Of a DNA stretch of 64,000 bases, positions 33,214-58,689 are shown in pieces (position 1 is the stretch's first letter; the number at the start of each line of letters is the position of its first letter). Under the pieces are notes generated by a model that worked only from the letters and a program-made list of their open reading frames with translations, did no database searches and was not told the origin of the DNA. Made by a program: the position numbers and the translations under genes. This DNA comes from an uncultured Pseudomonadota bacterium (GTDB lineage: Bacteria; Myxococcota_A; UBA796; SXON01), in the NCBI GenBank assembly GCA_903921785.1, contig CAIXRH010000014.1, positions 1,697-65,696 of the forward strand, given 5' to 3'.

Positions 33214-33224
33214 GGTGGGGCACC

Positions 33225-36324: not shown

Positions 36325-36325
36325 C

Positions 36326-37600: not shown

Positions 37601-37601
37601 C

Positions 37602-39146: not shown

Positions 39147-39155
39147 GTATCCCTC

Positions 39156-40295: not shown

Positions 40296-40305
40296 GGAGA
40301 TCCCC

Positions 40306-40662: not shown

Positions 40663-40671
40663 CGAGGCCCC

Positions 40672-41163: not shown

Positions 41164-41184
41164 ACCCCGTCCCGTCGCGACACC

Positions 41185-41217
41185 ACACACCCGCCCTCCG
41201 GCGGGTGTGTTCGTTTT
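41185..41217 (+). terminator. Intrinsic terminator
   Basis: acacacccgcc-ctcc-ggcgggtgtgt 11-bp stem followed by tcgtttt. Confidence 0.8.
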
Positions 41218-41289
41218 GAGACTCCGGATCACTACCTAAAGTCGCCGGTACAACGATCCGACGTTGAACCATCGCACCACGGAGTGGGC

Positions 41290-44100: not shown

Positions 44101-44153
44101 CCCGTGGCGGGCGGCCGTCCGGCCGCATAGACGCGCGCCACCTCGGAGTTCCC

Positions 44154-45535: not shown

Positions 45536-46615
45536 TCAGCAGCCGCTGCTGGCCTTCCCCGGCGAGCCCTTGTCCGACGCCGCGCCCGAGATCGCCGACG
45601 TGGCCATGCACCAGCTTCGGGCCGAGTCGTTCGAGCTGGTGTCGGCCTTGCTGTCGTTGAGCTCGATGCTCGCGCCCTTGGCGAGGGGCCAGCCGGCGGT
45701 CTCGTCCCAGGTCACCGCATCGAGCGTGGTGGTGTTGCCGCCGTTCGCGCGGCCGACGTAGAGGTCGTCGCCCGAGTTGTTGAAATTCACGCCACGACCT
45801 GCATAGTCGAAGTCAGCGGTCACCCCACCGTTGAGCGTGGAGTCGCCCTGCGCCGCGAAAACGAGGCGGTCCCCGTCCGTGGCCACCAGGGCGCTGTCCA
45901 CGGTGAACAGGTCGGCCGCCCCGAAGCTCGGGTCATCCGCCACCCGGAGCCCCTCGAGGTTCACCGAGGTCTCCGTGCTGACGAGGAGCTCGAACCACTC
46001 GCCGTCCCCGTCACTGACCGCGTCGGGGTCGTACATGATCTCGGTGATGACCAGCTCGCCGGCCTTGAGGTCGGCCACGCCGTAGTCCGCGCCGTCGCAG
46101 TCCTTGTCCACGTCGTCGCCGCGGGTCTCCTTCGCGTCGGGGTGCACGCTGGCGTTCCCATCATCGCAGTCGGTGCCGTGAACGGCCTCGCTGGCGTAGC
46201 CGTCCCCGTCCGCGTCGGCCTCCGCGGTGGCGTCCTTGCCGTCGCAGTCCTGGTCGATCTTGTCGCCCGCGGGGTCCGCGGCGCCGGGGTGGATGCTCGG
46301 ATCCTCGTCGTTGCAGTCCACCGCGTCGGAGTAGCCGTCTGCGTCGGCGTCCACGAAGCTCCCGGTGTCCGACCCGGTGTCGGCGCCGGTGTCATTGTTG
46401 TAGCCGTCTGCGTCGTCGCAATTGGCGTCGATCCCGTCGCCGGCGGCGTCGTTGGCGCCAGGATGCACATTCGGATCGGCGTCGTCACAATCCACGGAGG
46501 CCAGGTAGCCGTCGTGGTCCGCGTCCACGAAGTCGGTCCCGGAGGCCCCACTGTCGTTGGCGATGGACGTGGAGGTATCACAGGCAGCCAGGGCCAGCAG
46601 GAGCAGAGGGGTCAT
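45536..46615 (-). CDS. Lipoprotein with 3 MopE-type repeats and lamin-tail domain
   Basis: LLALAAC lipobox; DCxD....HP.A x3; LVITEIMYDP..GEWFEL; GSPG. Confidence 0.88.
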   Translation of the reverse strand: MTPLLLLALAACDTSTSIANDSGASGTDFVDADHDGYLASVDCDDADPNVHPGANDAAGDGIDANCDDADGYNNDTGADTGSDTGSFVDADADGYSDAVDCNDEDPSIHPGAADPAGDKIDQDCDGKDATAEADADGDGYASEAVHGTDCDDGNASVHPDAKETRGDDVDKDCDGADYGVADLKAGELVITEIMYDPDAVSDGDGEWFELLVSTETSVNLEGLRVADDPSFGAADLFTVDSALVATDGDRLVFAAQGDSTLNGGVTADFDYAGRGVNFNNSGDDLYVGRANGGNTTTLDAVTWDETAGWPLAKGASIELNDSKADTSSNDSARSWCMATSAISGAASDKGSPGKASSGC

Positions 46616-46687
46616 GCATCGAGTGTACCGCCACGCCGTCACGGAAGGAGGGCAAGCCGTCACCGAACCGTACTCGGGAAGGAAACG

Positions 46688-47611
46688 TCAGCCGATGCCC
46701 AGCTCCGCCATCGCACGCGCGAGCTCAACCCGCACCAGCTTCTTCCGCCACGCGGGGGAGGCAAGGTGCGTCGTGAGCGGCTGCACCTCGGCCATGGCCG
46801 CTTCCACCAGCTCCGGCGGCGAGGTGGCCTCCAGCCGGAGCGGCGCTGGCCCCACCGCGGAGACGACACATCGCCATGTATCATGGATGTGTTGCACCGC
46901 GGTGAGCAGCTGCGGGTAGTCGATCGCGCCGCGGGCACGCAGCTTCCGGTAGGCGATGGGCGCGCCGGGCGGGGGCACCTCAAGGCGCACCAGCACCGAA
47001 CCGCCAGGAACCTGCAACCACGTACGGCCATCCACCCCGTACAGCTCACGGATCGGGACGTGTCGTTCCCCGTGCGCCGTGGCGAACACCACCGATACAT
47101 CGAGCAACATCATCACCGGAACAGTGTCCGCACTATGGGCTGCATAGCAGCCCTTCCCCTTCGGGGCGACGTGACACACCGGACCTTCGCACTTGAGACA
47201 GCCACCCAACGCCACGCGCCAACCCGCCGGCTGGTTGTAGTATCGGCAGCGCGTGTCGAGCATGACGTTTCCGCCGATCGTGCCCATCGCCTGGATGGTC
47301 GGGGTCGCGACGGTCCGGGCGGCCTTCGCCAACGCCGGGTAGTCGCGCTGGACCACAGGCATCGCCGCCACCTCACGGAGCGTCACCGCCGCGCCGAGGG
47401 ACAGCCCGCCCTCCGGCAGGGGCTCCACCTGGCGGAGCTCCGGCACCCGCATGGTCGAGACGAGGCGAGTGGGCGCGAACAGCCGATGTTTCATCGACGG
47501 CAGGAGGTCCGTACCTCCGGACACGAGGCGCGCGCCGGGCTCACCAGCGAGCCTGACCAGCTCCGCGAGGTCCGTGGGGTCGGCGAAATCGAATCGAGGG
47601 AGCGGAAGCAT
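46688..47611 (-). CDS. hcrB: XDH-family FAD subunit with [4Fe-4S] insertion, 4-hydroxybenzoyl-CoA reductase beta-like
   Basis: GGTDL, GTIGGN, DTRCRYYNQ..CLK..VCHV..GCYAAHSADTVP, YRKLRARGAIDYP. Confidence 0.75.
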   Translation of the reverse strand: MLPLPRFDFADPTDLAELVRLAGEPGARLVSGGTDLLPSMKHRLFAPTRLVSTMRVPELRQVEPLPEGGLSLGAAVTLREVAAMPVVQRDYPALAKAARTVATPTIQAMGTIGGNVMLDTRCRYYNQPAGWRVALGGCLKCEGPVCHVAPKGKGCYAAHSADTVPVMMLLDVSVVFATAHGERHVPIRELYGVDGRTWLQVPGGSVLVRLEVPPPGAPIAYRKLRARGAIDYPQLLTAVQHIHDTWRCVVSAVGPAPLRLEATSPPELVEAAMAEVQPLTTHLASPAWRKKLVRVELARAMAELGIG

Positions 47612-49935
47612 CAGCGCCCTCCCGAACGACGGCGCCGGTCCAGCGCCCGAAGCACCTTCTCCGGCGTGAACGGCGGATCGTTGAGCCAGAGTCCCGTGGC
47701 GTCGTGAATCGCGTTTGCGATGGCCGGCACGGTGCTCAGCTGCGGCCCCTCCCCCGCCTCCTTGGCGCCGAGGGGCCCTTCCGGATCGTGGGACTCCACC
47801 GGAAAGACCACGATCTCCGGGCACTCGTGGATCGTCGGCACCTTGTACTCCAGGAGGCTCGGGGCCCGGATCAGCCCCTTGTCGTAGGCCTGTTCTTCGC
47901 TCACCGCTTCGCCGACCCCCATGTAGACACACCCCTCGATCTGCCCCTCTACGATGGCGAGGTTGAGCACGCGGCCGCAGTCGTGCGCCACCCAGACCTT
48001 CTCCACCCGGACCTCCCCGGTCTCCTCGTCCACGGCCACCTCGGCCACCTGCGCGGTGAACGAATAGGCCGGCGAGGGCCCCACCGACTGGCGTCGGAAT
48101 CGGCTGCCGATCTTGGGCGGAGTGTAGCCTCCAGCGTGAATCAGGGGCCCGAAGCGCTCCTCTGCCAGCCACACCGCGTCCACCCAAGAGACATCGGATG
48201 TTTCCGTACCCACCCGCGGTCCGTCGCCGCGCTCGGGGTGGCCCGCGAGGCCGAAGCGCACCTCCTCCGGGGCGCAGCCGAGCTTGGCGGCCACGGCCTC
48301 CACGATCTTGGCCCGCAACGGGCGCACGCCCGCGAGCGCGGCGTTGCCCGCCATGAAGGTGACCCGGCTGGAGTAGCTGCCGAGGTCCACCGGGGTGAGC
48401 GACGTGTCGCCCTCGATCACCCGGATGTCCTCCGGGTGCAGCCCCAGCTCCGCCGCCACGAGCCCGGCGAGCATGTGGTTGCTGCCCTGGCCGATGTCGG
48501 CAGTCCCGGCGCTCACGACCACCTCCCCGCTGCGGTCGATCTTCACTTGCACCGCGCTGTGGGGCATCTCGTTCTGATACACCGGGTGCAACGCCCCGCA
48601 CATGTAGGCGCTCGCGGCGAGGCCCAGTCCCCGGCCAGGCCCCAGCGTTCCCCGCCGGGTTTCGTAGCCGCTCGCCTTCACCACGGCGTCGATACACTCG
48701 CGGATGCCCACCGAGGTGACCCGGAGGCCGTTGCACGTCTCCGTGTTCGGCTCGATGCAGTTGCGTCGACGGAGCTCGGCGGGGTCTAGCCCCAGCCGTG
48801 CCGCCGCCTTGTCGAGGTGGGCCTCCAGCGCGAAGCGGGGCTGGATGGCCCCGTGGCCGCGTTTGGGTCCGCACGGGGGCTTGTTGGTGTAGAGCCGGTG
48901 CGACTCGAACCGGTAGTTCTCCACCCGGTACGGCAGCGTCATGAAGACGCCGAGGTAGTAGCTGGTGACCACGCCGTAGCTGGCGTACGCGCCACCGTCC
49001 GCCCAGGCCTTGAAGTCGATCGCGGTGATGTCTCCGGCCGCCGAGAAGCCCATCTTGAGCCACAGCCGCGTGGGGTGGCGACCGCGGTGCGCGTAGAAGA
49101 CCTCTTCGCGCTCCAGGACGATTCGGACCGGTCGTCCTAGCTTCCGCGCCAGGTACGCCGAACAGATGTCGGTGCAGAAGGGATCGCACTTTCCGCCGTA
49201 GCCGGCGCCGACGGCGGGCTTGATGAGCCGGACGTCCTGCTCGCGGAGCCCGAGCACCCGCGCCACATCCCGATGCACGTAGTGGGGGTTCTGCGTGCTA
49301 CTCCAAAGGGTGAGCTTGCCGTCGGGCTCCACCTGGGCCAGGGCCGCGTGGCTCTCCAGCGCGGCGTGCGTCGATCCCGGGTATACGTATTCTTCCTCAA
49401 TCACCACCTCGGCGGCGGCGAAGCCGGCGTCGACGTTGCCGTACGCCTGGTGCACCCGCCGGAGCACGTTGCTCGGCTTGCGCGCGTAGTCATGGATGAC
49501 GGGCTTGCTGGCGTCGAGCGCGTCCTCGATCGTGAGCACCGGCGGAAGCACCTCGTAGTCCACGCGCACGGCGGCACAGGCCCGATGTGCGGTCTCTTCG
49601 TCCACCGCCGCGATACACACCACGGGCTCGCCGATGTATCGCACCTTCCCAAGTGCCAACGCCGTCTCATCCTGGGCGACCGGGATCACCCCGTATCGTT
49701 TGGGGAGCTCCTCGCCGATGCAGGCGCCGAAGACGCCGGGGAGGGCCAGCGCGGCGTCAAGGTGGATCGCCACGATGCGCGCGTGGGGGTGCGGCGAGCG
49801 GACGAACTTGGCGTGCGCCATCCGGGGGACCGTGAGGTCCGCTACGAACTGCGCCCGGCCGGCGATCCGCTCGCGACCGTCGATCTTCCGCGCGTAGGCG
49901 CCGATGGGGCTCGGCACGGGCTCGGGCTGACGCAT
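47611..49935 (-). CDS. hcrA: XDH-family molybdenum subunit, 4-hydroxybenzoyl-CoA reductase alpha-like
   Basis: YGVIPVAQDE, AHRGR, GGAYASYG, TNKPPCGPKRGHG, DIGQGSN, GSYSSRVTFMAGN and GAKEAGEG resemble Thauera HcrA as I recall it. Confidence 0.78.
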   Translation of the reverse strand: MRQPEPVPSPIGAYARKIDGRERIAGRAQFVADLTVPRMAHAKFVRSPHPHARIVAIHLDAALALPGVFGACIGEELPKRYGVIPVAQDETALALGKVRYIGEPVVCIAAVDEETAHRACAAVRVDYEVLPPVLTIEDALDASKPVIHDYARKPSNVLRRVHQAYGNVDAGFAAAEVVIEEEYVYPGSTHAALESHAALAQVEPDGKLTLWSSTQNPHYVHRDVARVLGLREQDVRLIKPAVGAGYGGKCDPFCTDICSAYLARKLGRPVRIVLEREEVFYAHRGRHPTRLWLKMGFSAAGDITAIDFKAWADGGAYASYGVVTSYYLGVFMTLPYRVENYRFESHRLYTNKPPCGPKRGHGAIQPRFALEAHLDKAAARLGLDPAELRRRNCIEPNTETCNGLRVTSVGIRECIDAVVKASGYETRRGTLGPGRGLGLAASAYMCGALHPVYQNEMPHSAVQVKIDRSGEVVVSAGTADIGQGSNHMLAGLVAAELGLHPEDIRVIEGDTSLTPVDLGSYSSRVTFMAGNAALAGVRPLRAKIVEAVAAKLGCAPEEVRFGLAGHPERGDGPRVGTETSDVSWVDAVWLAEERFGPLIHAGGYTPPKIGSRFRRQSVGPSPAYSFTAQVAEVAVDEETGEVRVEKVWVAHDCGRVLNLAIVEGQIEGCVYMGVGEAVSEEQAYDKGLIRAPSLLEYKVPTIHECPEIVVFPVESHDPEGPLGAKEAGEGPQLSTVPAIANAIHDATGLWLNDPPFTPEKVLRALDRRRRSGGR

Positions 49936-50417
49936 CAGGACTTCCCGGCGTAGATGGCCTGCGCTTCGCGGGCCGCGGTGAGGATCTTGGTGTAGCCGGT
50001 GCACCGGCAGAGGTTGCTCCCCAGGGCCTCGCGAAGCTCCGCCTCGTTCGCCGTCGGGTTCTCGGCGAACAGGTGTCGGAGCGTCATCACAAAGCCCGGC
50101 GTGCAATAGCCACACTGCGCCGCCACGTGGTGATCGAAGGCCGCCTGGATCGGATCCGGGCCGGCGGGAGTGGCGACGCCCTCGATGGTCTCCACCCGCG
50201 CGCCCTCACAACCGACGGCGAGGGTGATGCACGAGAGCCGCGGGGCGCCGTCCACCAGGACGGTGCAGGCGCCGCAGTCGCCCACGTCGCAGCCATGTTT
50301 GGTGCCGGTGAGCCGAAGCGGCCCGCGGAGCACCTCGAGGAGCGTCTGGGCGGGCTCGACGAGCAAGCGGACGGGCTCGCCGTTGACGGTGAAGGAGAGG
50401 ATGCGGTCGGTGGGCAT
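49935..50417 (-). CDS. hcrC: XDH-family 2x[2Fe-2S] subunit, Hcr gamma-like
   Basis: GTKHGCDVGDCGAC, QCGYCTPG, NLCRCTGY; C-A-B gene order. Confidence 0.78.
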   Translation of the reverse strand: MPTDRILSFTVNGEPVRLLVEPAQTLLEVLRGPLRLTGTKHGCDVGDCGACTVLVDGAPRLSCITLAVGCEGARVETIEGVATPAGPDPIQAAFDHHVAAQCGYCTPGFVMTLRHLFAENPTANEAELREALGSNLCRCTGYTKILTAAREAQAIYAGKS

Positions 50418-50425
50418 GCGCCCGC

Positions 50426-50650
50426 TCAACCTAGCCGGCGCACCAACTTCGGCGAGGGCTCGAAGCAAGAACGCCGCGCGCCACAGGAGCCGGGCTCACA
50501 GACCCGGTCATCCGGGCCCCAGGGCTGGGCGGTGCGGTTGCACGTCCACGGCACGTCGTTGAGCGCGTAGAGGCTGGCCAGCTCGGCCTCCTCGACCACG
50601 TCGCGGCCGTAGAGCGACTTGGCCCGCATCCATCGACAGAGCTCGATCAT
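50426..50650 (-). CDS. Small Cys-rich protein (74 aa)
   Basis: MIELCRWMRAKSLY..WTCNRT..WGPDD..C....C.....CFE; ATGA overlap upstream; 8-nt gap to hcrC. Confidence 0.75.
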   Translation of the reverse strand: MIELCRWMRAKSLYGRDVVEEAELASLYALNDVPWTCNRTAQPWGPDDRVCEPGSCGARRSCFEPSPKLVRRLG

Positions 50651-51639
50651 CGGCGGCCTCGGGGCGCGGGGGTGGCTGGCGCGGGTACCGCGGGCGGGGC
50701 GAAGGACGGGGCGGGGAGCGCGGCCGGGACCCCGCCGAGCCGCGCGACCACGATCTCCACGGCCCGGGCGAGCTGCGGGAACTTGGTGCGGGTGGAGGTC
50801 GATGCGTGCGGAGCCGAGGCGGCGAGCGTGGCGACCACCGGATCCAGCGGGGCCCCGGCGAGGAGCGCAGCTTCCAGCTCGGGGACGCGCGCGGGGACCG
50901 AGTGCATCCCGCCCACCGCGACCCGGGCGAACCCTGGCGCGAGATGGAGGATGACCTCGACCAGCGGCCATTCGGCGCGCCCGCGCGACGCGACCCTGAA
51001 CCACCCCGATACCGCGCCGGGGCGTGGCGGGGGGAGGATCGCGGCGACGAGCAGCTCCTCCTCGGTGACGGTGTGCTCGGCGCCCGCGGCCATGCCGTCG
51101 CCGTAGAGCGCAGCGACTTCGATCAGCCCGCGCGGCTCGATCTCCACCTTCGCGTCGAACGCGAGGAGGGCGAGGGCGAGGGTGCTCGGGTGGGGGGCGA
51201 CGCACGGGCCCGTGCTCAGCGGGGCGTGCCACGGGTGGTCCACCCCGGCAGCCGGACAGCCCGTGCCGCCGGCCTTGTAGCAGCGGAAGTCGGGGCTGCG
51301 GAACCACGCGCAACGGGTGCGCTGGAGGAGGCTGCCCCCGAACGTCGCCACGTTGCGGATCTGGGGGTTCGCGAGGCCGCCCGCGGCGTCGGCGAGCGCG
51401 GGCCACCCGGCCCGAACCCGCTCGTCCGCGGCGAGCTCCGCGAGTCGGACGGCAGACCCCACCCGGAGCCCGCCGCCCGGCGCGGGGCCGACGCCGTCGA
51501 GGCCGGGGACGTCACGGAGGTCCACGATCGGCGCGGCGATGCGCCCGTGGTGGAGACGGTCCATCACGTCGGTCCCGCCGGCGCGGCGTTCGCCCCAGAT
51601 CGCCTGGGCGCGGAGGGTGGGGTGGCGAACGTCACTCAT
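50647..51639 (-). CDS. XDH-family FAD subunit (PaoB/YagS-like, [4Fe-4S] insertion)
   Basis: AGGTD, PQIRNVATFGG.LLQRTRC.WFR..CYK.GG.GC..CVAPHPS. Confidence 0.88.
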   Translation of the reverse strand: MSDVRHPTLRAQAIWGERRAGGTDVMDRLHHGRIAAPIVDLRDVPGLDGVGPAPGGGLRVGSAVRLAELAADERVRAGWPALADAAGGLANPQIRNVATFGGSLLQRTRCAWFRSPDFRCYKAGGTGCPAAGVDHPWHAPLSTGPCVAPHPSTLALALLAFDAKVEIEPRGLIEVAALYGDGMAAGAEHTVTEEELLVAAILPPPRPGAVSGWFRVASRGRAEWPLVEVILHLAPGFARVAVGGMHSVPARVPELEAALLAGAPLDPVVATLAASAPHASTSTRTKFPQLARAVEIVVARLGGVPAALPAPSFAPPAVPAPATPAPRGRR

Positions 51640-54413
51640 GCCGACACCCCCGCGAGCACCCGATCGGGCCGGAGTGGGAGCGCCCGTGGCGCCCATCCCG
51701 TCGCCGCGCGCACCGCGTTGGCGATGCTCGCCGCGACCGGCACCGCGACGAGCTCGGAGAGCCCGATACCGCCGCCGAGCACGTCTTCGTACCCCGCTTC
51801 GTCGAACTCCACGGCCATCTCCGGCGCGTCCGCGATGCCGGGCACGCGGTAGTCTTCAAGGTTTGCGGAGACCAACCCGCCGGTGACCGGGTCGACGAGG
51901 CGCGCTTCATAGAGCGCCGCCCCGACCCCCTGGATCACCCCGCCTTCCACCTGGGAGCGCGCGAGCCGAGGAACGGCGATGTGGCCCACGCCCACCCCCG
52001 TCCACGTGCGGAGGACCCGCACGCGGCCGAGCCAGGTGTCGACCTCCACCTCGGCGACCTGCACGGCCACCCCGAGGTGGTTGCCGATCGAGAGGTTCGC
52101 GATGGCGAAGGGGAGGAAGTAGGGCGCGTGGTCGTGGCGACGATGGCCGATCCGGCTCATGCGCGGCGCCACCTTGAGGACGTCGGCCCACGGGGCGAGC
52201 CCGCCCGCGTGGGCCACGCCGCCCGGCGCCGCCTTCGCCTGCTGCAACCCGAGCGCCCGCCCGGCCCGCGACGCGAGGTCCGCGGCGAGCTGCGTGAGCG
52301 CGTCCTCCACGGCCGGGACGATCGAGGCGGTGGTGCGGCTCCCTGCGGACATGGGGCCGGTGGGAAAGCTCGACTCCCCGAGCTCCACCCGGAACAACGA
52401 GCGGTCCGCGCCGAGGACCCGGGCGGCGGTCTCGGCGATCACCGTGCGGGTGCCGTTGCCCATGTCCTGCGCGGCGGTGCGCAGCACGATGAGCCCGTCG
52501 GCCACCTCCGCCTGCACCTCGGTGTTGCCCTGGAGGAAGTACATCCAGGCGCCGTTGGCGAGCCCCACGCCGCGGCGGAACCGGCCGGTCTGGCCGGACT
52601 GGGGCCGATCCTTCCAGAGCGGGAGGGCCTCCACGCGGTCATAGAGCCGGTTGCGCACCGGGTTGGGGTCCCAGCCGCGCCGCAGGGCGAGTGTATCCTT
52701 GCCGAGCTTCGTGGCGAGCTCGTCCATGGCGCCTTCGAGGGCGAAGAGCGCGGGGAACCCGCCGGGGCCCCGCATGGGGCGGGTGGGCGGGGTGTTCGAG
52801 GCGATGTCCCACTCCTGGAGCCGCTTCTCGGCGAACGGGTAGAGCAGCCGGAAGAGGATGCCCATGCTGTTGCCGATGCAGGCGCCGCCGTGGCCGTACG
52901 CCTCGAGATCGAGCCCCGCCGGCGACCCGTCGGCCTTCGCGCCGACGCGGAGGTTCGCCTCCTGCCCCGCGCGGATCGCCACCGTGAGCTCGCCCGGCCG
53001 GTCGAGCACCAGTCGCACCGCCCGCCCGGTGACCTTCGCGATCTCCACGCAGGCCTTGATCTGGATGTCGAAGCTCGCCTTGGCGCCGAAGCCGCCGCCG
53101 ACGTGCTCGGTGTGCACGCGCACCCGGTCCCGGGTGAGGCCGAAGACCTCGGCGAGGTCGTCCGCCATCGCGGTGACGGCCTGGGTGCTCAACCAAACGT
53201 CCAGGCCGTTGTCTTGCCACATCGCGAGCGCGGCATGAGGCTCCAGCGCGGTGTGGCAGAGCGGCTCGGTGGTCCACGTGTCCTCGACGAGCACGACCGA
53301 CGCGTCCGCGAGCGCCCTGGGGACGGCGCCGGGGCGGCCGCCGATGGAGAGGTCGGTCGGACCTCGGGCGTTGCCGGACCACTTCGCGGGCGTCGTGGGC
53401 AGCTCCGCGCCGAGCGGCATCGTGGCGTGCGGCTCGAACACCACGGGGGCGCCGGGCGCCCGCGCCGCGGCGAGCGTGATGGCGGCGGGCAGGACCTCCC
53501 ACTCCGCGACGATCGCGGCCAGGCCCGCCCGGGCCGCCTCCCGCGACTCCGCCGCGAGGACCGCGATCTCGTGGCCGACGAACCGCGCCCGCGCGCCGAC
53601 CTCGGCCAGCGCGACGGCGCCGCGGACGCCGGGCACCTTCAGGGCCGGCGCCAGGTCGAGCCGACGCAAGATGGCGCTGGCGTGGGGGCTTCGGAACAGC
53701 ACGCCTTCGAGCTGGCCTTCCAGACGAACATCCACCGTGTAGCGGGCGCGGCCGGTGACCTTCTCCACCGCCTCGACCCGCGGGGGCGCCACCGCGGAGT
53801 CCTCGTCGTACTGGCCGGCGCAGGCTGCTTGCACCGCGGCGTAGATCGCGCCATACGCCCCGCACCGGCACAGGTGCCCGGCGAGCGCCCCCGCGACCTC
53901 GTCCCGCGACGGTGCGACCCGGCCCTTCTCCGCCCGCCACCGGGCGAAGAACGCCACCGCCTCGGTGACAAAGCCCGGGGTGCAGTAGCCGCACTGGAGC
54001 GCGTCCTCTGCGGCGAACGCCCGCTGCATCGGGTGGAGCTTCGCGCCGTCGGCGAAGGTCTCCACCGTCTCGAGGTGGCGGCCGCCGAGGTGGCTCGCGG
54101 GGTGCAGGCAGCTCGCGACGCTCGCACCATCCACCAGGACCGTGCAGGCCCCGCACGCGCCGTGGCCACAGCCGTGCTTCGTCCCGGTGAGGCCGAGGCG
54201 CTCCCGCACCAACTCCAGCGTGGTCTCGGTCGGTCCGGGCGTGACCCTGACCGCCTTGCCATTGACCCAGAGGTCCAGCGAAGCGGGTGGATCGCCGGCG
54301 GGCGCCGCGGCAGCGGCACCCGCGGCAGCGGAGGCGGCTTCGGGGACGAGGGCCACCGCCGCAGTAGCGCCGAGCACACTACGGAGGAAGCCACGACGAG
54401 TCGCGTGGGGCAT
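51636..54413 (-). CDS. Tat-exported fused [2Fe-2S]/molybdenum aldehyde oxidoreductase (PaoA-PaoC fusion-like)
   Basis: TRRGFL Tat motif; CGHGACGAC, QCGYC, CRC; EKVTGRARY, GGGFGAK, MRGPG, QDMGNG, GLSEL. Confidence 0.88.
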   Translation of the reverse strand: MPHATRRGFLRSVLGATAAVALVPEAASAAAGAAAAAPAGDPPASLDLWVNGKAVRVTPGPTETTLELVRERLGLTGTKHGCGHGACGACTVLVDGASVASCLHPASHLGGRHLETVETFADGAKLHPMQRAFAAEDALQCGYCTPGFVTEAVAFFARWRAEKGRVAPSRDEVAGALAGHLCRCGAYGAIYAAVQAACAGQYDEDSAVAPPRVEAVEKVTGRARYTVDVRLEGQLEGVLFRSPHASAILRRLDLAPALKVPGVRGAVALAEVGARARFVGHEIAVLAAESREAARAGLAAIVAEWEVLPAAITLAAARAPGAPVVFEPHATMPLGAELPTTPAKWSGNARGPTDLSIGGRPGAVPRALADASVVLVEDTWTTEPLCHTALEPHAALAMWQDNGLDVWLSTQAVTAMADDLAEVFGLTRDRVRVHTEHVGGGFGAKASFDIQIKACVEIAKVTGRAVRLVLDRPGELTVAIRAGQEANLRVGAKADGSPAGLDLEAYGHGGACIGNSMGILFRLLYPFAEKRLQEWDIASNTPPTRPMRGPGGFPALFALEGAMDELATKLGKDTLALRRGWDPNPVRNRLYDRVEALPLWKDRPQSGQTGRFRRGVGLANGAWMYFLQGNTEVQAEVADGLIVLRTAAQDMGNGTRTVIAETAARVLGADRSLFRVELGESSFPTGPMSAGSRTTASIVPAVEDALTQLAADLASRAGRALGLQQAKAAPGGVAHAGGLAPWADVLKVAPRMSRIGHRRHDHAPYFLPFAIANLSIGNHLGVAVQVAEVEVDTWLGRVRVLRTWTGVGVGHIAVPRLARSQVEGGVIQGVGAALYEARLVDPVTGGLVSANLEDYRVPGIADAPEMAVEFDEAGYEDVLGGGIGLSELVAVPVAASIANAVRAATGWAPRALPLRPDRVLAGVSA

Positions 54414-54431
54414 CGGGTTCCCGGTATCCGG

Positions 54432-54722
54432 TTACGCGCGCAGCCGCCCTCGCGCCTCCCCCGCACCGATCCGCACCCCGTCGAGCCACACCTCGTCCGC
54501 CGCGCCGTCCGCCAGCTCCACCGGGACGCCGCTTCGGACACACCACAAAAGCAGGCGACCCAGCTCGCCGTCGGCGCCCGTGCGCACCAGGCGCAAGCGG
54601 GCACCGGGCGCGGAGACCACCGGCGTCTCCACCCGGACGCGACGCGCCGCCACCGCGATCATCCGGGGGTCGTCCCGGGGACCGAGGCCGGCGGCGCGTT
54701 CGAGGCGGGCGCGGAGGCTCAC
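54432..54722 (-). CDS. Small hypothetical protein (96 aa)
   Basis: GTGA overlap with boxB stop; fills the gap up to 18 nt before the next ATG. Confidence 0.5.
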   Translation of the reverse strand: MSLRARLERAAGLGPRDDPRMIAVAARRVRVETPVVSAPGARLRLVRTGADGELGRLLLWCVRSGVPVELADGAADEVWLDGVRIGAGEARGRLRA

Positions 54723-56143
54723 GCCTGCGGCGGCTTCACGTACTCGAAGTCCATGGAATTGCCGTGGATGCCCTTCTTGGGCGCCGCGATCCAGTTCGCC
54801 ATCTTCCCGGGCTCCTGCACGCGGTGCATGAGGCTCGTGACGTAGGCGCGGTCTTCGGCCGAGGGCAGCCAGTTGCCGATGTTGCGGTCGTATTCGTCCT
54901 GGGCGAGCAGCTGACCGTCCGGGCCGAACGGGAGGTTGGCGTAGATGCCCTGCCGACGGAAGAAGCGGCTGTCCGGGAGCGTGATGCGCTCCGAGGAACC
55001 TTCCTCCTCCAACGCCTGGTTCCAGCGCTTGACGACCCGCTCGGCGTCCTTGATGTAGGACTGGCGGAGCATCTCGTTCATGGCGTTGCGCAGCGGCACC
55101 TCCTTGGAGGTGAGCTTGCCGTTCTCCACGGTGGCGAGGCGGTGCCACTGGTTGAGCGCCGTGTGCTCGTCGTAGTCCTTGGCCTCGGCCCAGCGGCCCT
55201 TGAGGCCCGCAGCGAAGAAGTCCGCCGCGTTGGTGCTGATCTCGGAGCCGAACAGGTCGATGCTGTAGCAGAACCAGTAGTTGATCCACTTCTGGGTCAT
55301 CGCCACCGGCACGCCACCCTGGGCCCGCGCGTCGCCGTTGCGGTCCAGCTTCGCGAGCTGGGCGCCGCGGCGGAGGATGCGCTCGACGCCGGTCTCGCCG
55401 ACGAAGAGGTGATGGGCCTCCTCGGTGAGCATGAAGCGGCAGGTGCGGGAGAGCGGGTCGAAGCCGGACTCGGCGAGGGCGCCGAGCTGGTACTTCCCAT
55501 CGCGGTCGGTGAAGCAGGTGAAGCAGAAGAAGGTGAGCCAGTCCGGACAGGGCTGGTTGAACGCGTCGAGGATGCGGGGCTTGTCGGCGTCGCCGGCGCG
55601 GCGGGCGAGCAGGTCATCCGCCTCGTCGCGGCCGTCCTTGCCGAAGTAGGCGTGGAGCAGGTACACCATCGCCCAGAGGTGACGGCCCTCCTCGACGTTG
55701 ACCTGGAACAGGTTGCGCATGTCGTAGAGCGAGGGGGCGGTCATGCCCAGCCAGCGCTGCTGCTCGACGCTCGCGGGCTCGGTGTCGGCCTGGGTGACGA
55801 TGATGCGGCGGAGCACGTTGCGGTACTCGCCCGGCACTTCCTGCCAGACGGGCTCGCCGGCGTGGTCGCCGCAGGGGATGCGCCGATCGGCGACCTTGTC
55901 ATCGAGGAAGATGCCCCAGCGGTACTCGGGCATCTTGACGTAGCCGAACTGCGCCCAGCCGCCCGGCTCGGTGCTCACCGCGGTGCGGAGGTACACGTCG
56001 TGGAGCTGGAAGCTCTCCGGGCCCATCTGGTTCCACCAGTCCAGGTAGGCGGGCTGCCACTTCTCGAGGGCGCGCTGCAGGCGCTTGTCCGAGTCGAGGT
56101 TGACGTTGTTCGGGATGAGGCTCTGGTAGTCGATGTCGGCCAT
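54719..56143 (-). CDS. boxB: Benzoyl-CoA 2,3-epoxidase subunit B
   Basis: IPNNVNL, VKMPEYRWGIF, QADTEPASVEQQ, NVEEGRH, DRDGKYQL, TEEAHH di-iron motifs. Confidence 0.96.
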   Translation of the reverse strand: MADIDYQSLIPNNVNLDSDKRLQRALEKWQPAYLDWWNQMGPESFQLHDVYLRTAVSTEPGGWAQFGYVKMPEYRWGIFLDDKVADRRIPCGDHAGEPVWQEVPGEYRNVLRRIIVTQADTEPASVEQQRWLGMTAPSLYDMRNLFQVNVEEGRHLWAMVYLLHAYFGKDGRDEADDLLARRAGDADKPRILDAFNQPCPDWLTFFCFTCFTDRDGKYQLGALAESGFDPLSRTCRFMLTEEAHHLFVGETGVERILRRGAQLAKLDRNGDARAQGGVPVAMTQKWINYWFCYSIDLFGSEISTNAADFFAAGLKGRWAEAKDYDEHTALNQWHRLATVENGKLTSKEVPLRNAMNEMLRQSYIKDAERVVKRWNQALEEEGSSERITLPDSRFFRRQGIYANLPFGPDGQLLAQDEYDRNIGNWLPSAEDRAYVTSLMHRVQEPGKMANWIAAPKKGIHGNSMDFEYVKPPQA

Positions 56144-56168
56144 GGGGGACTCCGAAAGGGAAGAAGGA

Positions 56169-57797
56169 TCAGGTACGCTTGTAGTCGAAGACGGGGCGCT
56201 CGGGCGCACCGAACATCTTGAGCGCACCGCGCTCGCCGACGGCGTTGGGGCGCTGGAAGATCCAGTTCTGCCAGGCGGTGAGCCGGCCGTAGATCTTGTT
56301 GTCCATCGTCTCGGGGCCGCCGAACCGGAGGTTCTGCTCCATGCCGGTGAGCGCGTCGGGGGAGAGGCTCGCGCGCTCCTCGATGGCGATGCGGACCTCG
56401 TCTTCGTAGTCGATCTCGTCGGGCGTCATGGTGACGAGCTCGAGCTCCTCGGCGCCCTCCGCGTCGATCGTCGCGCCGACGGCGAGCACCTTGGCCGGCT
56501 GGCCGGGCGCGCCGGGGAAGCGGGACTGAAGGCGGGTGAGGCCGGAGTGCATCGGAAAGAGCCCACCGGAGACCTTCGAGACGAAGACCTTGTTGATCCC
56601 GTCGTCGTCCGCCAGCATGTAGGAGCGGTCGGCCGCGAGCACGATCTCGAACAGCGAGCCGGAAAAGGCGTTGCCCGGCTCGACGAGGGCGAAGATCGTC
56701 TTGGCCATGTTGTCGAGGCGGCGGAGGACACGCGCTTGGAAGAGCTGCACCTCGCGGCCGAACCAGCCCTGGGTCTCCAGCGCGGCGTCGGCTTCGAGGA
56801 CCTTGTGGCGATCCCCCTCGGCCTTGACCACGAGCAGCCCGATGTCGAGGTGGTTCACGCGGAGGCGGAGCAGCGCGTCGTCGAGCTCGCGCCAGGCGCG
56901 CAGCGCCCACGTGGAGCTGTCGGCGCAAGGCGCGGTGTCCGGCGCCTTGATGGTGAGGTGCGCGACACGCGCTTCGTTGTCCACCTTCACGGTGACGTAG
57001 CGGTATTCGAGGTGGTTCCCCGCGACCTCGCTCGGGGCGAGCGGCTCGAGCACCACCGAGAAGGCCCCTTCCGGCATCGGGTTGGCGCCGGCCACGGCCT
57101 GGGCGCGCGCATCCAGGCTCGCCTGCCACTTGCTGCGGGCGAAAGAAGCATCGACGAAGCGGTACTTCACGGCGTCGCGCGCCTTGAAGCCCTCGGCCTT
57201 GGTGCAGAACACATCCGCCATGTCGCGGCGGACCTTCCGCTTGTCGGTGAGGCGGGTGAGGCCGCCGGTGCCAGGGAGCACGCCGAGCAGCGGCACCTCG
57301 GGGAGGGAGACGGCGGAGTTCCCGTCGTCGATCAGGTAGATCTCCTTGCAGCACATCGCGAGCTCGTACCCGCCGCCGGACGCGGTGCCGTTGAGCGCGG
57401 CCACGTACACCGCGCCGCCGCTGTCGGTGGCCTCCTCGATGCCGCAGCGCGTTTCATTGGTGAACTTGCAGAAGTTCACCTTGAACGCGTGGCTCGACTG
57501 GGCGAGCATGCGGATGTTCGCGCCGGCGCAGAACACCTTGTCGTACCCGCCGGTGACGACCACGCAGCGGACCTGCGGGTGCTCAAAGCGGAGGCGCTGG
57601 ACGGCGTCGGCCAGCTCCACGTCCACCCCGAGGTCGTAGCTGTTGAGCTTGAGCTCGTACTTCCCGGGCCACATCCCGCCATCTTCCTGCACGCGCATGG
57701 TGAGCGTGGCGATGGCCCCCTGCACATCCAGCTTCCAATGCCGGTAACGATCGGGGTGGGTCTCGAAGTTCACAGCGGGGTACGCGATCTCGGCCAT
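56169..57797 (-). CDS. boxC: 2,3-epoxybenzoyl-CoA dihydrolase
   Basis: YRHWKL, KLNSYDLGVDVELADA, KVNFCKFTNETR, LPGTGGL, RLTAWQNWIFQRPNA. Confidence 0.96.
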   Translation of the reverse strand: MAEIAYPAVNFETHPDRYRHWKLDVQGAIATLTMRVQEDGGMWPGKYELKLNSYDLGVDVELADAVQRLRFEHPQVRCVVVTGGYDKVFCAGANIRMLAQSSHAFKVNFCKFTNETRCGIEEATDSGGAVYVAALNGTASGGGYELAMCCKEIYLIDDGNSAVSLPEVPLLGVLPGTGGLTRLTDKRKVRRDMADVFCTKAEGFKARDAVKYRFVDASFARSKWQASLDARAQAVAGANPMPEGAFSVVLEPLAPSEVAGNHLEYRYVTVKVDNEARVAHLTIKAPDTAPCADSSTWALRAWRELDDALLRLRVNHLDIGLLVVKAEGDRHKVLEADAALETQGWFGREVQLFQARVLRRLDNMAKTIFALVEPGNAFSGSLFEIVLAADRSYMLADDDGINKVFVSKVSGGLFPMHSGLTRLQSRFPGAPGQPAKVLAVGATIDAEGAEELELVTMTPDEIDYEDEVRIAIEERASLSPDALTGMEQNLRFGGPETMDNKIYGRLTAWQNWIFQRPNAVGERGALKMFGAPERPVFDYKRT

Positions 57798-57816
57798 GGG
57801 GTCCGTCCGGAGCGTT

Positions 57817-57874
57817 GGCACTATACTGCACGTGCTCGGGGTAGACAAGCACACAAACATGCAGTATACTGCAT
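57817..57874. promoter_or_regulatory. BzdR/BoxR-type operators
   Basis: Perfect palindrome ATGCAGTATACTGCAT (57859-57874; TGCA-N6-TGCA) and near copy GGCACTATACTGCA (57817-57830) between divergent boxC and regulator. Confidence 0.8.
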
Positions 57875-57888
57875 CCGTGAGCATTCCC

Positions 57889-58689
57889 ATGCCCGAGCTG
57901 CTCCCTCGTGTCGGCGCACGCGTACGCCAGCTCCGCGAGTCCCGGGAGCTCACCCAAGCCGAGCTCGCCCGGCGATCGGGGGTGAGCCTACGTTTTCTGG
58001 CCGACGTGGAGGGCGGCACCGGCAACGCCAGCCTGCTGCGCCTCGCCGAGCTGGCGCTGGTCCTGGGGGTGAGCCTCGCGGAGCTGGTGGTCGACGCCGG
58101 CCCGGTGGTCGACGACCTCACCCGCTTCGGCCGCCTCGCCCCGGCGGAGCGGCGCCTCCGCCTCGGCGGCACCCGCGTGGCCATCGGCCTCGTCGGCCTT
58201 CGCGGCGCCGGCAAGTCCTCCGCCGGAGCCGGCCTCGCCGCGCGCCTCGGCGTGCCCTTCGTAGAGGTCGACGCCGCGATCGAAGCGCGTGCGGGGATGC
58301 CGTTGGCGGAGCTGTTCACCGACCACGGCGTCGCGCGCTACCGCGAGCTGGAGCGAGAAGTCCTCGACGCGACGCTCGCCACCGGACGGCCGGTTGTATT
58401 CGCCGCGGGCGGCTCCCTGGTCACCGACACCGCGGCCTGGGCCGACGTGCGGCGGCGCGCGCGCACCACCTGGCTGCGCGCCCGGCCGGAGACCCACCTG
58501 CGCCGCGTCGAATCCCAGGGCGATCATCGGCCCATGCGCGGGCGGCGCGACGCCCTGTCCGAGCTGCGGGGGCTGCTCAGCGCCCGCGAGCCGCTCTACG
58601 CGCTCGCTGACCTCACGCTGGACACCGACCGGCTCGACCTGTTGGAGACGATCTGGGCGCTGGAGGCGTGGGCGAACGAGCCGGCCTGA
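57889..58689 (+). CDS. boxR: BzdR/BoxR-family regulator (XRE HTH plus shikimate-kinase-like domain)
   Basis: LTQAELARRSGVSLRFLADVE.G.GN; IGLVGLRGAGKS; AAGGSLV; QGDHRPM. Confidence 0.9.
   Translation: MPELLPRVGARVRQLRESRELTQAELARRSGVSLRFLADVEGGTGNASLLRLAELALVLGVSLAELVVDAGPVVDDLTRFGRLAPAERRLRLGGTRVAIGLVGLRGAGKSSAGAGLAARLGVPFVEVDAAIEARAGMPLAELFTDHGVARYRELEREVLDATLATGRPVVFAAGGSLVTDTAAWADVRRRARTTWLRARPETHLRRVESQGDHRPMRGRRDALSELRGLLSAREPLYALADLTLDTDRLDLLETIWALEAWANEPA

What the first reader, a model, noticed from the sequence alone, without database searches (positions are those of the whole stretch)
46688..58689. Hybrid aromatic-degradation operon: boxC-boxB without boxA, joined to a Pao-like molybdoenzyme and an hcrCAB-like reductase under one BzdR/BoxR regulator
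Seen: nine minus-strand genes from 57797 to 46688 with junctions of 25 nt, GTGA, 18 nt, ATGA, ATGA, 8 nt, TGATG and TGATG, so one apparent transcript, divergent from a BzdR-type regulator with TGCA-N6-TGCA operators. Known: BoxB/BoxC form the O2-dependent benzoyl-CoA epoxide pathway and normally need the NADPH reductase BoxA. HcrCAB is the anaerobic-pathway enzyme that removes the OH from 4-hydroxybenzoyl-CoA. PaoABC oxidises aromatic aldehydes in the periplasm. Inference: a funnel from aromatic aldehyde to acid, to 4-OH-benzoyl-CoA, to benzoyl-CoA, to the epoxide, mixing anaerobic-type and aerobic chemistry. Alternatively the Hcr-like complex supplies electrons to BoxB in place of BoxA. I do not know of a characterised operon with this layout.
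Basis: partly seen in the sequence, partly recalled or inferred. Interest (0 to 1): 0.85.

Follow-up and report, generated by a model that had tools for sequence, protein, structure and literature searches.

The report
BoxA-less box operon with two molybdoenzymes
A lake myxobacterium has one operon joining the oxygen-dependent benzoyl-CoA ring-opening enzymes, without their usual reductase, to two molybdenum enzymes that probably feed it aromatic acids; the pairing with one of them recurs across its whole order.

Summary
Nine tightly packed minus-strand genes (57797-46688) lie divergent from a BoxR/BzdR regulator. They are boxC, boxB, a 96-aa ORF, a Tat-signalled PaoA-PaoC fusion, a PaoB-like gene, a 74-aa Cys-rich ORF and hcrC/A/B-like genes.

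BoxA is missing from this 96%-complete genome and from 0 of 41 genomes sampled from the same order, while BoxB is found in 36 of 41. A missing boxA is therefore normal for this lineage.

The Hcr-like Mo subunit belongs to a well-supported sister clade of canonical HcrA and keeps the four-Cys [4Fe-4S] loop. Hcr-like genes co-occur with BoxB in 33 of 36 BoxB-positive order genomes. They lie within 10 kb of boxB in 14 of those 33, and in loci labelled as five further groups.

The genome also has class I benzoyl-CoA reductase, BoxD, a benzoate-CoA ligase family gene and a 2-oxoacid:ferredoxin oxidoreductase, but no PobA.

Best reading (about 0.5): a 4-hydroxybenzoyl-CoA-reductase-type enzyme supplies benzoyl-CoA to BoxBC, with ferredoxin as the probable electron donor.

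The idea that Hcr replaces BoxA gets no support once phylogeny is corrected for. The Pao-like link is seen only within the genus.

Verdict: a new variant of a known kind.

The parts
57889..58689 (+). boxR/bzdR-type regulator (XRE HTH plus shikimate-kinase-like domain). The ORF as listed starts at 57796; the likely start is ATG 57889.
   Evidence: NF006015 242 bits over cut-off 204, with PF01381 and PF01202. The profile match starts at residue 33 of the long ORF. Start choice rests on the sequence.
57817..57873 (.). Divergent promoter/operator region. It holds the perfect palindrome TGCAGTATACTGCA (57860-57873) and a one-mismatch copy GGCACTATACTGCA (57817-57830). Each overlaps a -10 hexamer.
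   Evidence: The promoter-like sites are + 57842-57870 (10 of 12 matches) and - 57848-57820 (9 of 12 matches).
56169..57797 (-). boxC, 2,3-epoxybenzoyl-CoA dihydrolase (542 aa)
   Evidence: TIGR03222 725 bits over cut-off 712.3.
54719..56143 (-). boxB, diiron benzoyl-CoA 2,3-epoxidase subunit (474 aa)
   Evidence: TIGR03225 719 bits over cut-off 499.1. It is the only copy in the genome. EExxH-type columns are invariant in 19 sequences.
54432..54722 (-). small1, a 96-aa ORF whose GTG start overlaps the boxB stop; no known family
   Evidence: No Pfam or NCBIfam match. Homologues follow boxB in L123, L005 and L124, lie upstream of boxR in L004, and occur in congener L218. An RNA-library contig bridges the boxB/small1 junction.
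51636..54413 (-). Tat-signalled fusion of a PaoA-like 2x[2Fe-2S] domain and a PaoC-like Mo-binding domain (925 aa)
   Evidence: Pfam Fer2, Fer2_2, Ald_Xan_dh_C, MoCoBD_1 and MoCoBD_2. PaoC model 245 bits, cut-off 1180. The N-terminus reads TRRGFLR followed by a hydrophobic stretch. Closest solved chains are 5y6q_C and 5g5h_C.
50647..51639 (-). PaoB-like FAD subunit with a four-Cys loop (330 aa)
   Evidence: PF00941. Best solved match is E. coli PaoB, 5g5g_B, 118.9 bits, with the Cys loop aligned.
50426..50650 (-). small2, a 74-aa Cys-rich ORF of unknown function
   Evidence: No family. It sits between PaoB-like and hcrC-like genes in two congeners at 47-48% identity. Atlas feature hits are clusters of 72-78-aa hypothetical proteins.
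49935..50417 (-). hcrC-like 2x[2Fe-2S] small subunit (160 aa)
   Evidence: PF01799 and PF00111. TIGR03193 161 bits, cut-off 257.8.
47611..49935 (-). hcrA-like Mo-cofactor subunit (774 aa), clade A of the sister group of canonical HcrA
   Evidence: TIGR03194 813 bits, cut-off 994.55, next family 486. 1rm6_A 604 bits over the full length. Tree placement.
46688..47611 (-). hcrB-like FAD subunit with the four-Cys [4Fe-4S] loop (307 aa)
   Evidence: TIGR03195 220 bits, cut-off 404.55. 1rm6_B 164.5 bits with the Cys residues aligned. C122, C138, C146 and C155 are invariant in 18 box-linked homologues.

Best explanation
This is a BoxR-controlled operon of a freshwater Myxococcota genome. [quoted passage not shown]

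The cytoplasmic HcrCAB-like complex most likely removes the para-hydroxyl from 4-hydroxybenzoyl-CoA, or from a close para-hydroxyaroyl-CoA. That yields benzoyl-CoA, the substrate of BoxB. BoxC then opens the epoxide. An unlinked BoxD and an unlinked benzoate-CoA ligase family enzyme complete the route.

The Tat-exported PaoABC-like enzyme probably oxidises aromatic aldehydes to acids outside the cytoplasm.

Neither BoxB nor Hcr has a dedicated reductase here. Electrons are inferred to come from a ferredoxin pool reduced by 2-oxoacid:ferredoxin oxidoreductase.

Shown: gene content, layout, family and clade placement, absence of BoxA, and recurrence of the hcr-box pairing. Inferred: the substrate, the direction of catalysis, the electron donor and the role of the Pao-like enzyme.
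For: Similarity to 4-HBCR.
- The hcrA-like protein matches Thauera 4-HBCR alpha over its full length (604 bits; the next solved chain scores 269).
- It scores 813 bits on TIGR03194 against 486 for the next family.
- The beta subunit keeps the four Cys of the [4Fe-4S] loop.

Tree of 58 Mo subunits. One clade (support 100) holds the three sequences over the TIGR03194 cut-off together with a 33-row sister group (support 98). In that sister group, subclades A and B hold all 12 box-linked rows. Subclade C holds 14 rows, none box-linked.

Linkage in loci fetched by BoxB similarity. hcrCAB-like genes lie within 10 kb of boxB in 11 of 80 genome loci and 12 of 80 metagenome loci. By record title these are Myxococcota, Planctomycetota, Rokubacteria/Methylomirabilota, SAR324 and Limnocylindria. 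In the SAR324 locus the five genes are contiguous.

Order-wide sample of 41 genomes.
- BoxB and Hcr-like both present in 33; BoxB only in 3; Hcr-like only in 1; neither in 4.
- The two genes lie within 10 kb on one contig in 14 of the 33.
- Class I BcrB was found in only 12 of the 41.

Own genome.
- BoxD, 619 bits.
- Benzoate-CoA ligase family, 483 bits.
- 2-oxoacid:ferredoxin oxidoreductase alpha, 647 bits.
- No PaaA and no PobA.

Hcr-linked genomes G002-G005 show neither BcrB over the cut-off nor any AOR-family (BamB-type) gene.

Congeners keep PaoAC-PaoB-small2-hcrCAB as one block. boxB lies about 4.3 kb (G086) and about 17 kb (G090) upstream of it.
Against: - All three Hcr-like subunits score below NCBIfam's equivalog cut-offs, and the protein lies outside the canonical clade. 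Identity of function is not shown.
- Canonical 4-HBCR is oxygen-sensitive and ferredoxin-dependent (passages of PMC12771579), yet here it is co-transcribed with an O2-requiring epoxidase.
- The genome carries a second Hcr-like set on contig C116. Which copy acts on 4-hydroxybenzoyl-CoA is open.
- The operon holds no CoA ligase and no ferredoxin gene.
- In most Myxococcota relatives hcrCAB is separated from boxCB by variable genes, some on the other strand.
- The Pao-like link is confined to the genus, to three congeners.
- MAG incompleteness affects every absence count.
Confidence: 0.5

Rival explanations
1. The Hcr-like complex is the missing electron-delivery module of BoxB. It would oxidise a substrate at its Mo centre, for instance the aldehyde made by BoxC, 3,4-dehydroadipyl-CoA semialdehyde. 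Electrons would pass through the [2Fe-2S] clusters, FAD and the surface [4Fe-4S] to the diiron site. It would thereby replace BoxA, and in some lineages BoxD as well.
For: - BoxA is absent from 12 of 12 genomes with a box-linked hcr set and from 0 of 41 order genomes. Hcr-like genes accompany BoxB in 33 of 36 of the BoxB-positive order genomes.
- Raw association in 81 BoxB genomes: an Hcr-family gene in 32 of 54 BoxA-less genomes against 6 of 27 with BoxA (Fisher p 0.002).
- BoxD is not found in 5 of the 10 Hcr-linked genomes searched for it, G005-G009. The authors of PMC4782131 also missed BoxD in SAR324 bins (passages read).
Against: - On the BoxB tree, BoxA presence changes only 5 times. 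In the 4-5 independent pairs, Hcr goes the same way about 1.0 times and the other way about 1.1 times. The raw association is therefore explained by shared ancestry.
- 22 of 54 BoxA-less genomes have no Hcr-family gene at 700 bits or more. They include an isolate (Oceanibacterium hippocampi, L025) and a record titled as a chromosome (L040).
- Three order genomes that are 91-96% complete have BoxB but neither BoxA nor Hcr-like genes.
- The window's own genome has a BoxD-class aldehyde dehydrogenase and no paa pathway.
- The closest characterised relative is a reductase that consumes electrons.
Confidence: 0.13
2. The Hcr-like and Pao-like enzymes act on other substrates, such as other hydroxyaroyl-CoA esters, N-heterocycles or aldehydes. 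They sit beside boxCB only as part of a loosely organised aromatic-catabolism neighbourhood, with no direct metabolic hand-over to BoxB.
For: - All Hcr-like subunits score under the equivalog cut-offs.
- Two paralogous clades, A and C, coexist in most genomes of the order, which suggests diverged specificities.
- The intervening genes vary, and in L005 they lie on the opposite strand.
- In congeners the Pao-Hcr block follows a FAD_binding_4 oxidase and a halogenase-like flavoprotein rather than boxB directly.
Against: - The pairing recurs in distant groups, with operon-like contiguity in SAR324 and Rokubacteria-type loci.
- Across the order, Hcr-like genes track BoxB (33 of 34 Hcr-positive genomes) far better than BcrB (12 of 34).
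- In this window the junctions overlap, and no promoter-like site lies between boxC and hcrB.
Confidence: 0.22

Closest known systems
boxABC-boxR cluster of Aromatoleum (Azoarcus) evansii and Burkholderiales (aerobic benzoyl-CoA epoxide pathway)
   Same: BoxB and BoxC score over NCBIfam's equivalog cut-offs. The regulator is a divergent BoxR/BzdR type with a TGCA-N6-TGCA palindrome. The operator consensus itself is recalled, not taken from a call.
   Different: There is no BoxA in the genome or in 41 order genomes. In betaproteobacterial-type loci boxA follows boxB directly, in 22 of 80 loci. BoxD and the CoA ligase are unlinked here. Two Mo enzymes and two small ORFs are added.
4-hydroxybenzoyl-CoA reductase HcrCAB of Thauera aromatica (PDB 1RM6, 1SB3) and HbaBCD of Rhodopseudomonas palustris
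   Same: Same three-subunit make-up and same gene order (gamma, alpha, beta). Full-length match to the alpha chain. The four-Cys [4Fe-4S] loop in beta is kept. It belongs to the same well-supported clade.
   Different: It lies in a sister clade, and all subunits score under the equivalog cut-offs. It is linked to the O2-dependent box genes rather than to bcr. The C-terminal part of beta matches the model only to position 239 of 321. Activity is untested.
Periplasmic aldehyde oxidoreductase PaoABC of Escherichia coli (PDB 5G5G, 5G5H)
   Same: A Tat-type signal on the FeS part, and a FAD subunit with a four-Cys loop. PaoB is the best solved match of the FAD subunit, and PaoC is the second-best solved match of the Mo part.
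   Different: PaoA and PaoC are fused into one 925-aa protein. PaoC scores 245 bits against a cut-off of 1180. No XdhC/PaoD-type gene is in the operon. A 74-aa Cys-rich ORF follows instead.
SAR324 benzoyl-CoA ligase/BoxB/BoxC cluster described in PMC4782131
   Same: The authors report BoxB, BoxC and a ligase in one cluster, no BoxD, and a 4-hydroxybenzoyl-CoA reductase in some bins (passages read). Locus L044, a SAR324 MAG, has boxC-boxB-hcrCAB contiguous.
   Different: In the passages read, that paper does not link the reductase to the box genes.
Sulfuritalea hydrogenivorans: box genes used together with a 4-hydroxybenzoyl-CoA reductase (recalled from memory; the paper is not in the library)
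   Same: The same idea: Hcr feeds benzoyl-CoA to the Box pathway in an organism without the usual reductive route. Two Sulfuritalea MAGs here (L070, L080) have HcrA over the cut-off.
   Different: Those two genomes (L070, L080) carry BoxA and canonical HcrA, and no hcr-like genes were seen within their box loci. The recollection was not checked in any call.

Membership tests
BoxB (benzoyl-CoA 2,3-epoxidase, TIGR03225) | Score over the curated equivalog cut-off across the full length | tested here: met
   719.2 bits against 499.1; profile positions 1-470 of 471.
BoxB (benzoyl-CoA 2,3-epoxidase, TIGR03225) | Conserved carboxylate/histidine motifs of a diiron centre (assignment of these residues as ligands is recalled) | tested here: met
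   E151, E152, H155, E241, E242, H244 and H245 are invariant in 19 aligned BoxB sequences.
Two-component BoxAB epoxidase | A BoxA reductase (TIGR03224) encoded in the cluster or elsewhere in the genome | tested here: not met
   Best hit 28 bits against a cut-off of 459. tblastn with a verified BoxA (L034, 712 bits) found only ferredoxin-like fragments. Found in 0 of 41 order genomes.
BoxC (TIGR03222) | Score over the curated equivalog cut-off | tested here: met
   725 bits against 712.3.
BoxR/BzdR regulators (NF006015) | XRE HTH plus shikimate-kinase-like domain, score over the cut-off, divergent from the regulated operon | tested here: met
   241.9 bits against 204, with PF01381 and PF01202. 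It is divergent from boxC, with palindromes in the 91-bp spacer.
4-hydroxybenzoyl-CoA reductase (HcrCAB/HbaBCD) | Alpha, beta and gamma subunits over the NCBIfam equivalog cut-offs | tested here: not met
   Alpha 813 against 994.55; beta 220 against 404.55; gamma 161 against 257.8.
4-hydroxybenzoyl-CoA reductase (HcrCAB/HbaBCD) | Extra [4Fe-4S] loop with four Cys in the FAD subunit | tested here: met
   The Cys residues align with those of 1rm6_B and are invariant in 18 homologues. PaoB-type subunits share this loop, so it is not exclusive to the family.
4-hydroxybenzoyl-CoA reductase (HcrCAB/HbaBCD) | Mo subunit inside the clade of characterised or equivalog-level HcrA | tested here: inconclusive
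   It lies in the sister group (support 98) of the three over-cut-off sequences; the union has support 100. The characterised Thauera and Rhodopseudomonas sequences could not be put in the tree.
4-hydroxybenzoyl-CoA reductase (HcrCAB/HbaBCD) | Ferredoxin-dependent dehydroxylation of 4-hydroxybenzoyl-CoA | not testable with these tools
   Needs an enzyme assay.
PaoABC periplasmic aldehyde oxidoreductase | PaoC and PaoA over the equivalog cut-offs | tested here: not met
   PaoC 245 against 1180; PaoA 139 against 322.
PaoABC periplasmic aldehyde oxidoreductase | Twin-arginine signal on the FeS subunit | tested here: met
   The N-terminus MPHATRRGFLRSVLGATAAVALV is read. The PaoA model aligns from residue 5. 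No signal-peptide predictor was run.
PaoABC periplasmic aldehyde oxidoreductase | Three separate subunits plus an XdhC-type chaperone gene (paoD) | tested here: not met
   PaoA and PaoC are fused. None of the nine products has an XdhC domain.

The most novel reading that the evidence does not exclude
In lineages that have no BoxA at all, the box-linked clades A and B of Hcr-like molybdoenzymes act as the redox partner of BoxB. They would oxidise a CoA-ester aldehyde, possibly BoxC's own product, and return the two electrons to the diiron epoxidase through their surface [4Fe-4S] cluster. That would make a self-contained electron loop, replacing the NADPH-linked BoxD/BoxA pair.
Probability: 0.1. 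Interest if true: 0.9.

Novelty: new variant of a known kind. Interest (0 to 1): 0.62.

Why it matters
Three things would follow if the best reading holds.

1. Aerobic or microaerobic degradation of 4-hydroxybenzoate, and of the lignin- and cresol-derived compounds that pass through it, could run entirely through CoA esters. It would use a molybdenum dehydroxylase so far known only from anaerobic metabolism. That implies an oxygen-adapted lineage of 4-hydroxybenzoyl-CoA reductase.

2. The Box pathway is taught as BoxA-dependent. Here a whole order of Myxococcota shows BoxB in 36 of 41 genomes and BoxA in 0 of 41, and many other lineages also run it without BoxA. What reduces BoxB in these organisms becomes a concrete, testable question.

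3. KEGG-style pathway calls that require BoxA will miss this capacity in freshwater, soil and marine MAGs.

Tried and rejected
1. Binding of BoxB to the HcrB-like subunit (complex prediction on alignments A1 and A2). The job gave no verdict: score 0.01 against a mark of 0.32, and the controls were not folded. It is not used for or against anything.

2. 'Hcr replaces BoxD'. BoxD is missing from G005-G009, but it is present in the window's genome and in G001-G004. It is also missing from many genomes without hcr linkage. The idea was rejected as a general explanation.

3. 'Hcr replaces BoxA' as a phyletic pattern. The raw counts look significant, but independent contrasts do not support it.

4. 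small1 and small2. Neither has a Pfam or NCBIfam family. The Atlas search gave only unnamed clusters for small2, and for small1 a weak thioredoxin-like fold match on a low-confidence model. small2 has no paralogue in the genome and no homologue in the loci held at that point, L003-L202. No function is assigned to either.

5. Expression. One lake-water RNA library (X7, contigs only, 95-99% identical, so a relative) has contigs on hcrB, hcrA, PaoAC, the small1/boxB junction, boxB and boxC. DNA can be present in such libraries, and contigs show neither strand nor a single transcript. This is a weak hint only. Stretches without cover say nothing.

6. Literature. Searches found no paper that links 4-hydroxybenzoyl-CoA reductase genes to box clusters or discusses BoxA-less BoxB in Myxococcota. 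One search led only to PMC10803450, which notes missing BoxA in a few clusters (passages read). The 2004 structure paper of 4-HBCR is not held, so active-site residues could not be compared. The Sulfuritalea work is recalled only.

7. In one search a helper step failed, so BoxD and BclA were never added to the query. Those two columns of that table are void and are not used.

8. Class II benzoyl-CoA reductase was tested only through the AOR family Pfam model, in 11 genomes. The AOR genes of G006-G010 were not resolved into BamB or others.

9. The three genome sets overlap. Identical hit coordinates show that G087, G111 and G101 are G001, G002 and G012. Some metagenome loci duplicate genome loci (L132 = L011; L136 resembles L020). 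The counts are therefore not independent.

Full report
WHAT IS THERE

The window is G000:C14:1697-65696 of a 7.48-Mb, 362-contig assembly that is 96% complete. GC is about 70%. The nearest BoxB loci carry Myxococcota titles.

Codon-position GC and a start-codon listing give nine minus-strand genes from 57797 to 46688. Products:
- BoxC: TIGR03222 725 bits, cut-off 712.3.
- BoxB: TIGR03225 719 bits, cut-off 499.1.
- A 96-aa ORF (small1) with no family.
- A 925-aa fusion of PaoA-like 2x[2Fe-2S] domains with a PaoC-like Mo domain, behind a TRRGFLR twin-arginine N-terminus.
- A PaoB-like FAD subunit.
- A 74-aa Cys-rich ORF (small2) with no family.
- HcrC-, HcrA- and HcrB-like subunits.

The divergent gene is a BoxR/BzdR regulator (NF006015 242 bits, cut-off 204). 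Its real start is probably ATG 57889. That leaves a 91-bp spacer holding a perfect TGCAGTATACTGCA, unique in the window, and a one-mismatch copy. Each overlaps the -10 hexamer of one of two divergent promoter-like sites. No other promoter-like site lies inside the operon.

Flanking genes are unrelated: chemotaxis, a sulfite-oxidase-like protein, ATP sulfurylase, and MopE/LTD proteins.

IS boxA REALLY MISSING, AND DOES THAT MATTER?

- The BoxA model finds nothing above 28 bits in the genome.
- A BoxA verified from locus L034 (712 bits) finds only ferredoxin-like fragments by tblastn.
- In a taxonomy-based sample of 41 genomes of the same order (7 families, 24 genera), BoxB is found in 36 (33 over the cut-off) and BoxA in 0.
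- Among the 81 genomes behind the 80 most similar BoxB loci plus the window, BoxA is over the cut-off in 27 and absent from 54.

A BoxA-less box system is therefore the rule in this lineage and is common outside it.

THE REST OF THE PATHWAY IN THIS GENOME

- One boxB.
- A BoxD-class aldehyde dehydrogenase on C267 (NF008868 619 bits, cut-off 444), standing alone among unrelated genes. No PaaA was found.
- A benzoate-CoA ligase family gene on C292 (483 bits, cut-off 375).
- A 2-oxoacid:ferredoxin oxidoreductase alpha subunit (647 bits).
- No 4-hydroxybenzoate 3-monooxygenase.
- A complete-looking class I benzoyl-CoA reductase cluster, had-oah-dch-bcrCBAD, on C72; gene names other than bcrB are assigned from gene order and length.
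- A second Hcr-like set on C116, with gamma and alpha fused.

The organism therefore looks like a facultative benzoyl-CoA degrader.

WHAT THE Hcr-LIKE ENZYME IS

The alpha subunit matches Thauera 4-HBCR alpha end to end (604 bits; the next solved chain scores 269). The beta subunit aligns with 1rm6_B, including the four Cys of the extra [4Fe-4S] loop. These Cys are invariant in 18 box-linked homologues. All three subunits stay below NCBIfam's equivalog cut-offs.

I built a tree of 58 Mo subunits (IQ-TREE quick search, LG+G4, SH-aLRT).
- One clade (support 100) holds the three sequences that pass the TIGR03194 cut-off, together with a 33-row sister group (support 98).
- The sister group splits into three subclades.
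- Subclade A has 5 rows: the window, L005 and L006, which are box-linked, plus 2 others.
- Subclade B has 14 rows, 9 of them box-linked.
- Subclade C has 14 rows, none box-linked. It includes the window genome's C116 paralogue.
- One subclade-C locus (L089) sits beside bcrCBAD.

HOW CONSERVED THE LINKAGE IS

- hcrCAB-like genes lie within the fetched 10 kb of boxB in 11 of 80 genome loci and 12 of 80 metagenome loci. Many of those contigs are too short to tell.
- None of these loci has boxA. boxA is adjacent in 22 of 80 genome loci and in 17 of 80 metagenome loci, four of them only as contig-end fragments.
- By record title the linked loci are Myxococcota-like, Planctomycetota, Rokubacteria/Methylomirabilota, SAR324 and Limnocylindria.
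- In SAR324 locus L044 the order is boxC-boxB-hcrC-hcrA-hcrB-marR.
- In the Rokubacteria type the order is hcrCAB, a regulator, boxCB, a Rid-family gene, then a CoA ligase.

In the order-wide sample:
- Hcr-like alpha genes occur in 34 of 41 genomes, usually as two copies.
- BoxB and Hcr-like are both present in 33, BoxB alone in 3, Hcr-like alone in 1 (a genome 80% complete), and neither in 4.
- One copy lies on the boxB contig within 10 kb in 14 of the 33, and within 25 kb in 18 of the 33.
- BcrB is found in only 12 of 41. Hcr-like genes therefore track Box, not Bcr.

Hcr-linked genomes G002-G005 have neither BcrB over the cut-off nor any AOR-family gene.

THE Pao-LIKE PART

- Among the 160 BoxB loci, only the window has the fused PaoAC next to boxB.
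- The fusion protein belongs to a large family of about 935-aa proteins. Of the named top hits, several are Myxococcota.
- Three congeners have orthologues at 61-65% identity.
- In G086 the order is boxR, boxC, boxB, small1, then 4.3 kb of other genes, then PaoAC, PaoB, small2, one gene on the opposite strand, and hcrCAB. The 4.3 kb holds a small ORF on the opposite strand, a FAD_binding_4 oxidase, an unknown gene and a halogenase-like flavoprotein.
- In G090, PaoAC-PaoB-small2-hcrCAB are contiguous and boxB lies 17 kb upstream on the same contig.
- The window genome keeps the oxidase/unknown/halogenase trio on another contig.

The Pao-small2-Hcr block is thus a genus-level feature. Its direct fusion to boxCB-small1 was seen only in the window's genome.

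Raw counts favour a link between BoxA absence and Hcr presence: 32 of 54 against 6 of 27 (Fisher p 0.002). On the BoxB tree, however, BoxA status changes only five times. The 4-5 independent pairs show no trend.

Genomes with BoxB and neither BoxA nor Hcr exist:
- 22 of the 54 BoxA-less genomes, among them an isolate and a record titled as a chromosome.
- 3 of the 36 BoxB-positive order genomes.

The complex prediction gave no verdict.

MOST LIKELY MECHANISM

- BoxR represses two divergent promoters until its effector appears. Benzoyl-CoA as effector is recalled from the Azoarcus system, not tested here.
- The operon then makes BoxB and BoxC together with a 4-HBCR-type enzyme that converts 4-hydroxybenzoyl-CoA, or a close analogue, into benzoyl-CoA.
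- It also makes an exported aldehyde oxidoreductase that turns aromatic aldehydes into acids.
- The unlinked ligase and BoxD complete the route.
- Electrons for both Hcr and BoxB are inferred to come from ferredoxin.
- The coexistence of a box-linked clade-A copy and a separate clade-C copy suggests isoenzymes for oxic and anoxic conditions. This is inference only.

NOVELTY

I found no paper linking hcr-type genes to box clusters or describing order-wide BoxA-less box systems. PMC4782131 lists both gene sets in SAR324 without connecting them in the passages read. PMC10803450 notes missing BoxA in single clusters. Supplements were closed.

I rate this a new variant of a known kind. Interest is 0.62.

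Noticed in passing
G000 contig C72:45328-52862 (outside the window): A complete-looking class I benzoyl-CoA reductase cluster, had-oah-dch-bcrCBAD; gene names other than bcrB are assigned from gene order and length. BcrB scores 720 bits against a cut-off of 487. The organism therefore has both the reductive and the epoxide route for benzoyl-CoA.
   Followed up: partly
G000 contig C116:655-4421 (outside the window): A second Hcr-like set with gamma and alpha fused into one 930-aa protein, plus a 321-aa beta subunit. It belongs to tree clade C and has no aromatic-pathway neighbours. Open frames of about 930-960 aa in most genomes of the order suggest the same fusion there.
   Followed up: partly
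window 45536-46663 (-): A secreted or lipoprotein-like gene with MopE metal-binding repeats and a lamin-tail domain starts only 24-45 nt downstream of hcrB on the same strand. No terminator-like site lies between them. It may be a tenth gene of the transcript.
   Followed up: no
L025, L075 and L035, next to boxR: A conserved ORF of about 176 aa whose N-terminus looks flavodoxin-like by eye sits beside boxR. Two of the three loci (L025, L075) lack BoxA; L035 has it. This is a possible alternative electron carrier for BoxB. No family search was run on it.
   Followed up: no
L044:4522-16089 (SAR324 MAG): The locus reads MFS transporter, 349-aa cupin protein, thioesterase-like ORF, GST, boxC, boxB, hcrCAB, MarR. 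This is a compact box-hcr operon preceded by genes reminiscent of a gentisate-type branch.
   Followed up: partly
L218:6034-9883 and G000 contig C21:887-7180: A trio of a FAD_binding_4 oxidase (weak Pfam hit, 31.5 bits), an unknown 279-aa protein and a tryptophan-halogenase-like flavoprotein precedes PaoAC in the two congeners examined (L218; partly in L217). In the window's genome the trio lies on another contig.
   Followed up: partly
window 37602-39146 (+): A single 514-aa protein carries both CheR methyltransferase and CheD domains. It lies inside a chemotaxis cluster (about 31400-43008) that has two CheA genes and two MCP genes.
   Followed up: no
window 43105-45410 (+): A sulfite-oxidase-family molybdoenzyme (Oxidored_molyb plus Mo-co_dimer) is followed by an ATP sulfurylase, just upstream of the operon's downstream neighbour.
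   Followed up: no
window 50426-50650 (-): small2 belongs, by Atlas features (scores 0.90-0.91), to clusters of 72-78-aa hypothetical proteins found mostly in Myxococcota and Acidobacteriota. In three genomes of the genus it sits between the PaoB-like and hcrC-like genes.
   Followed up: partly
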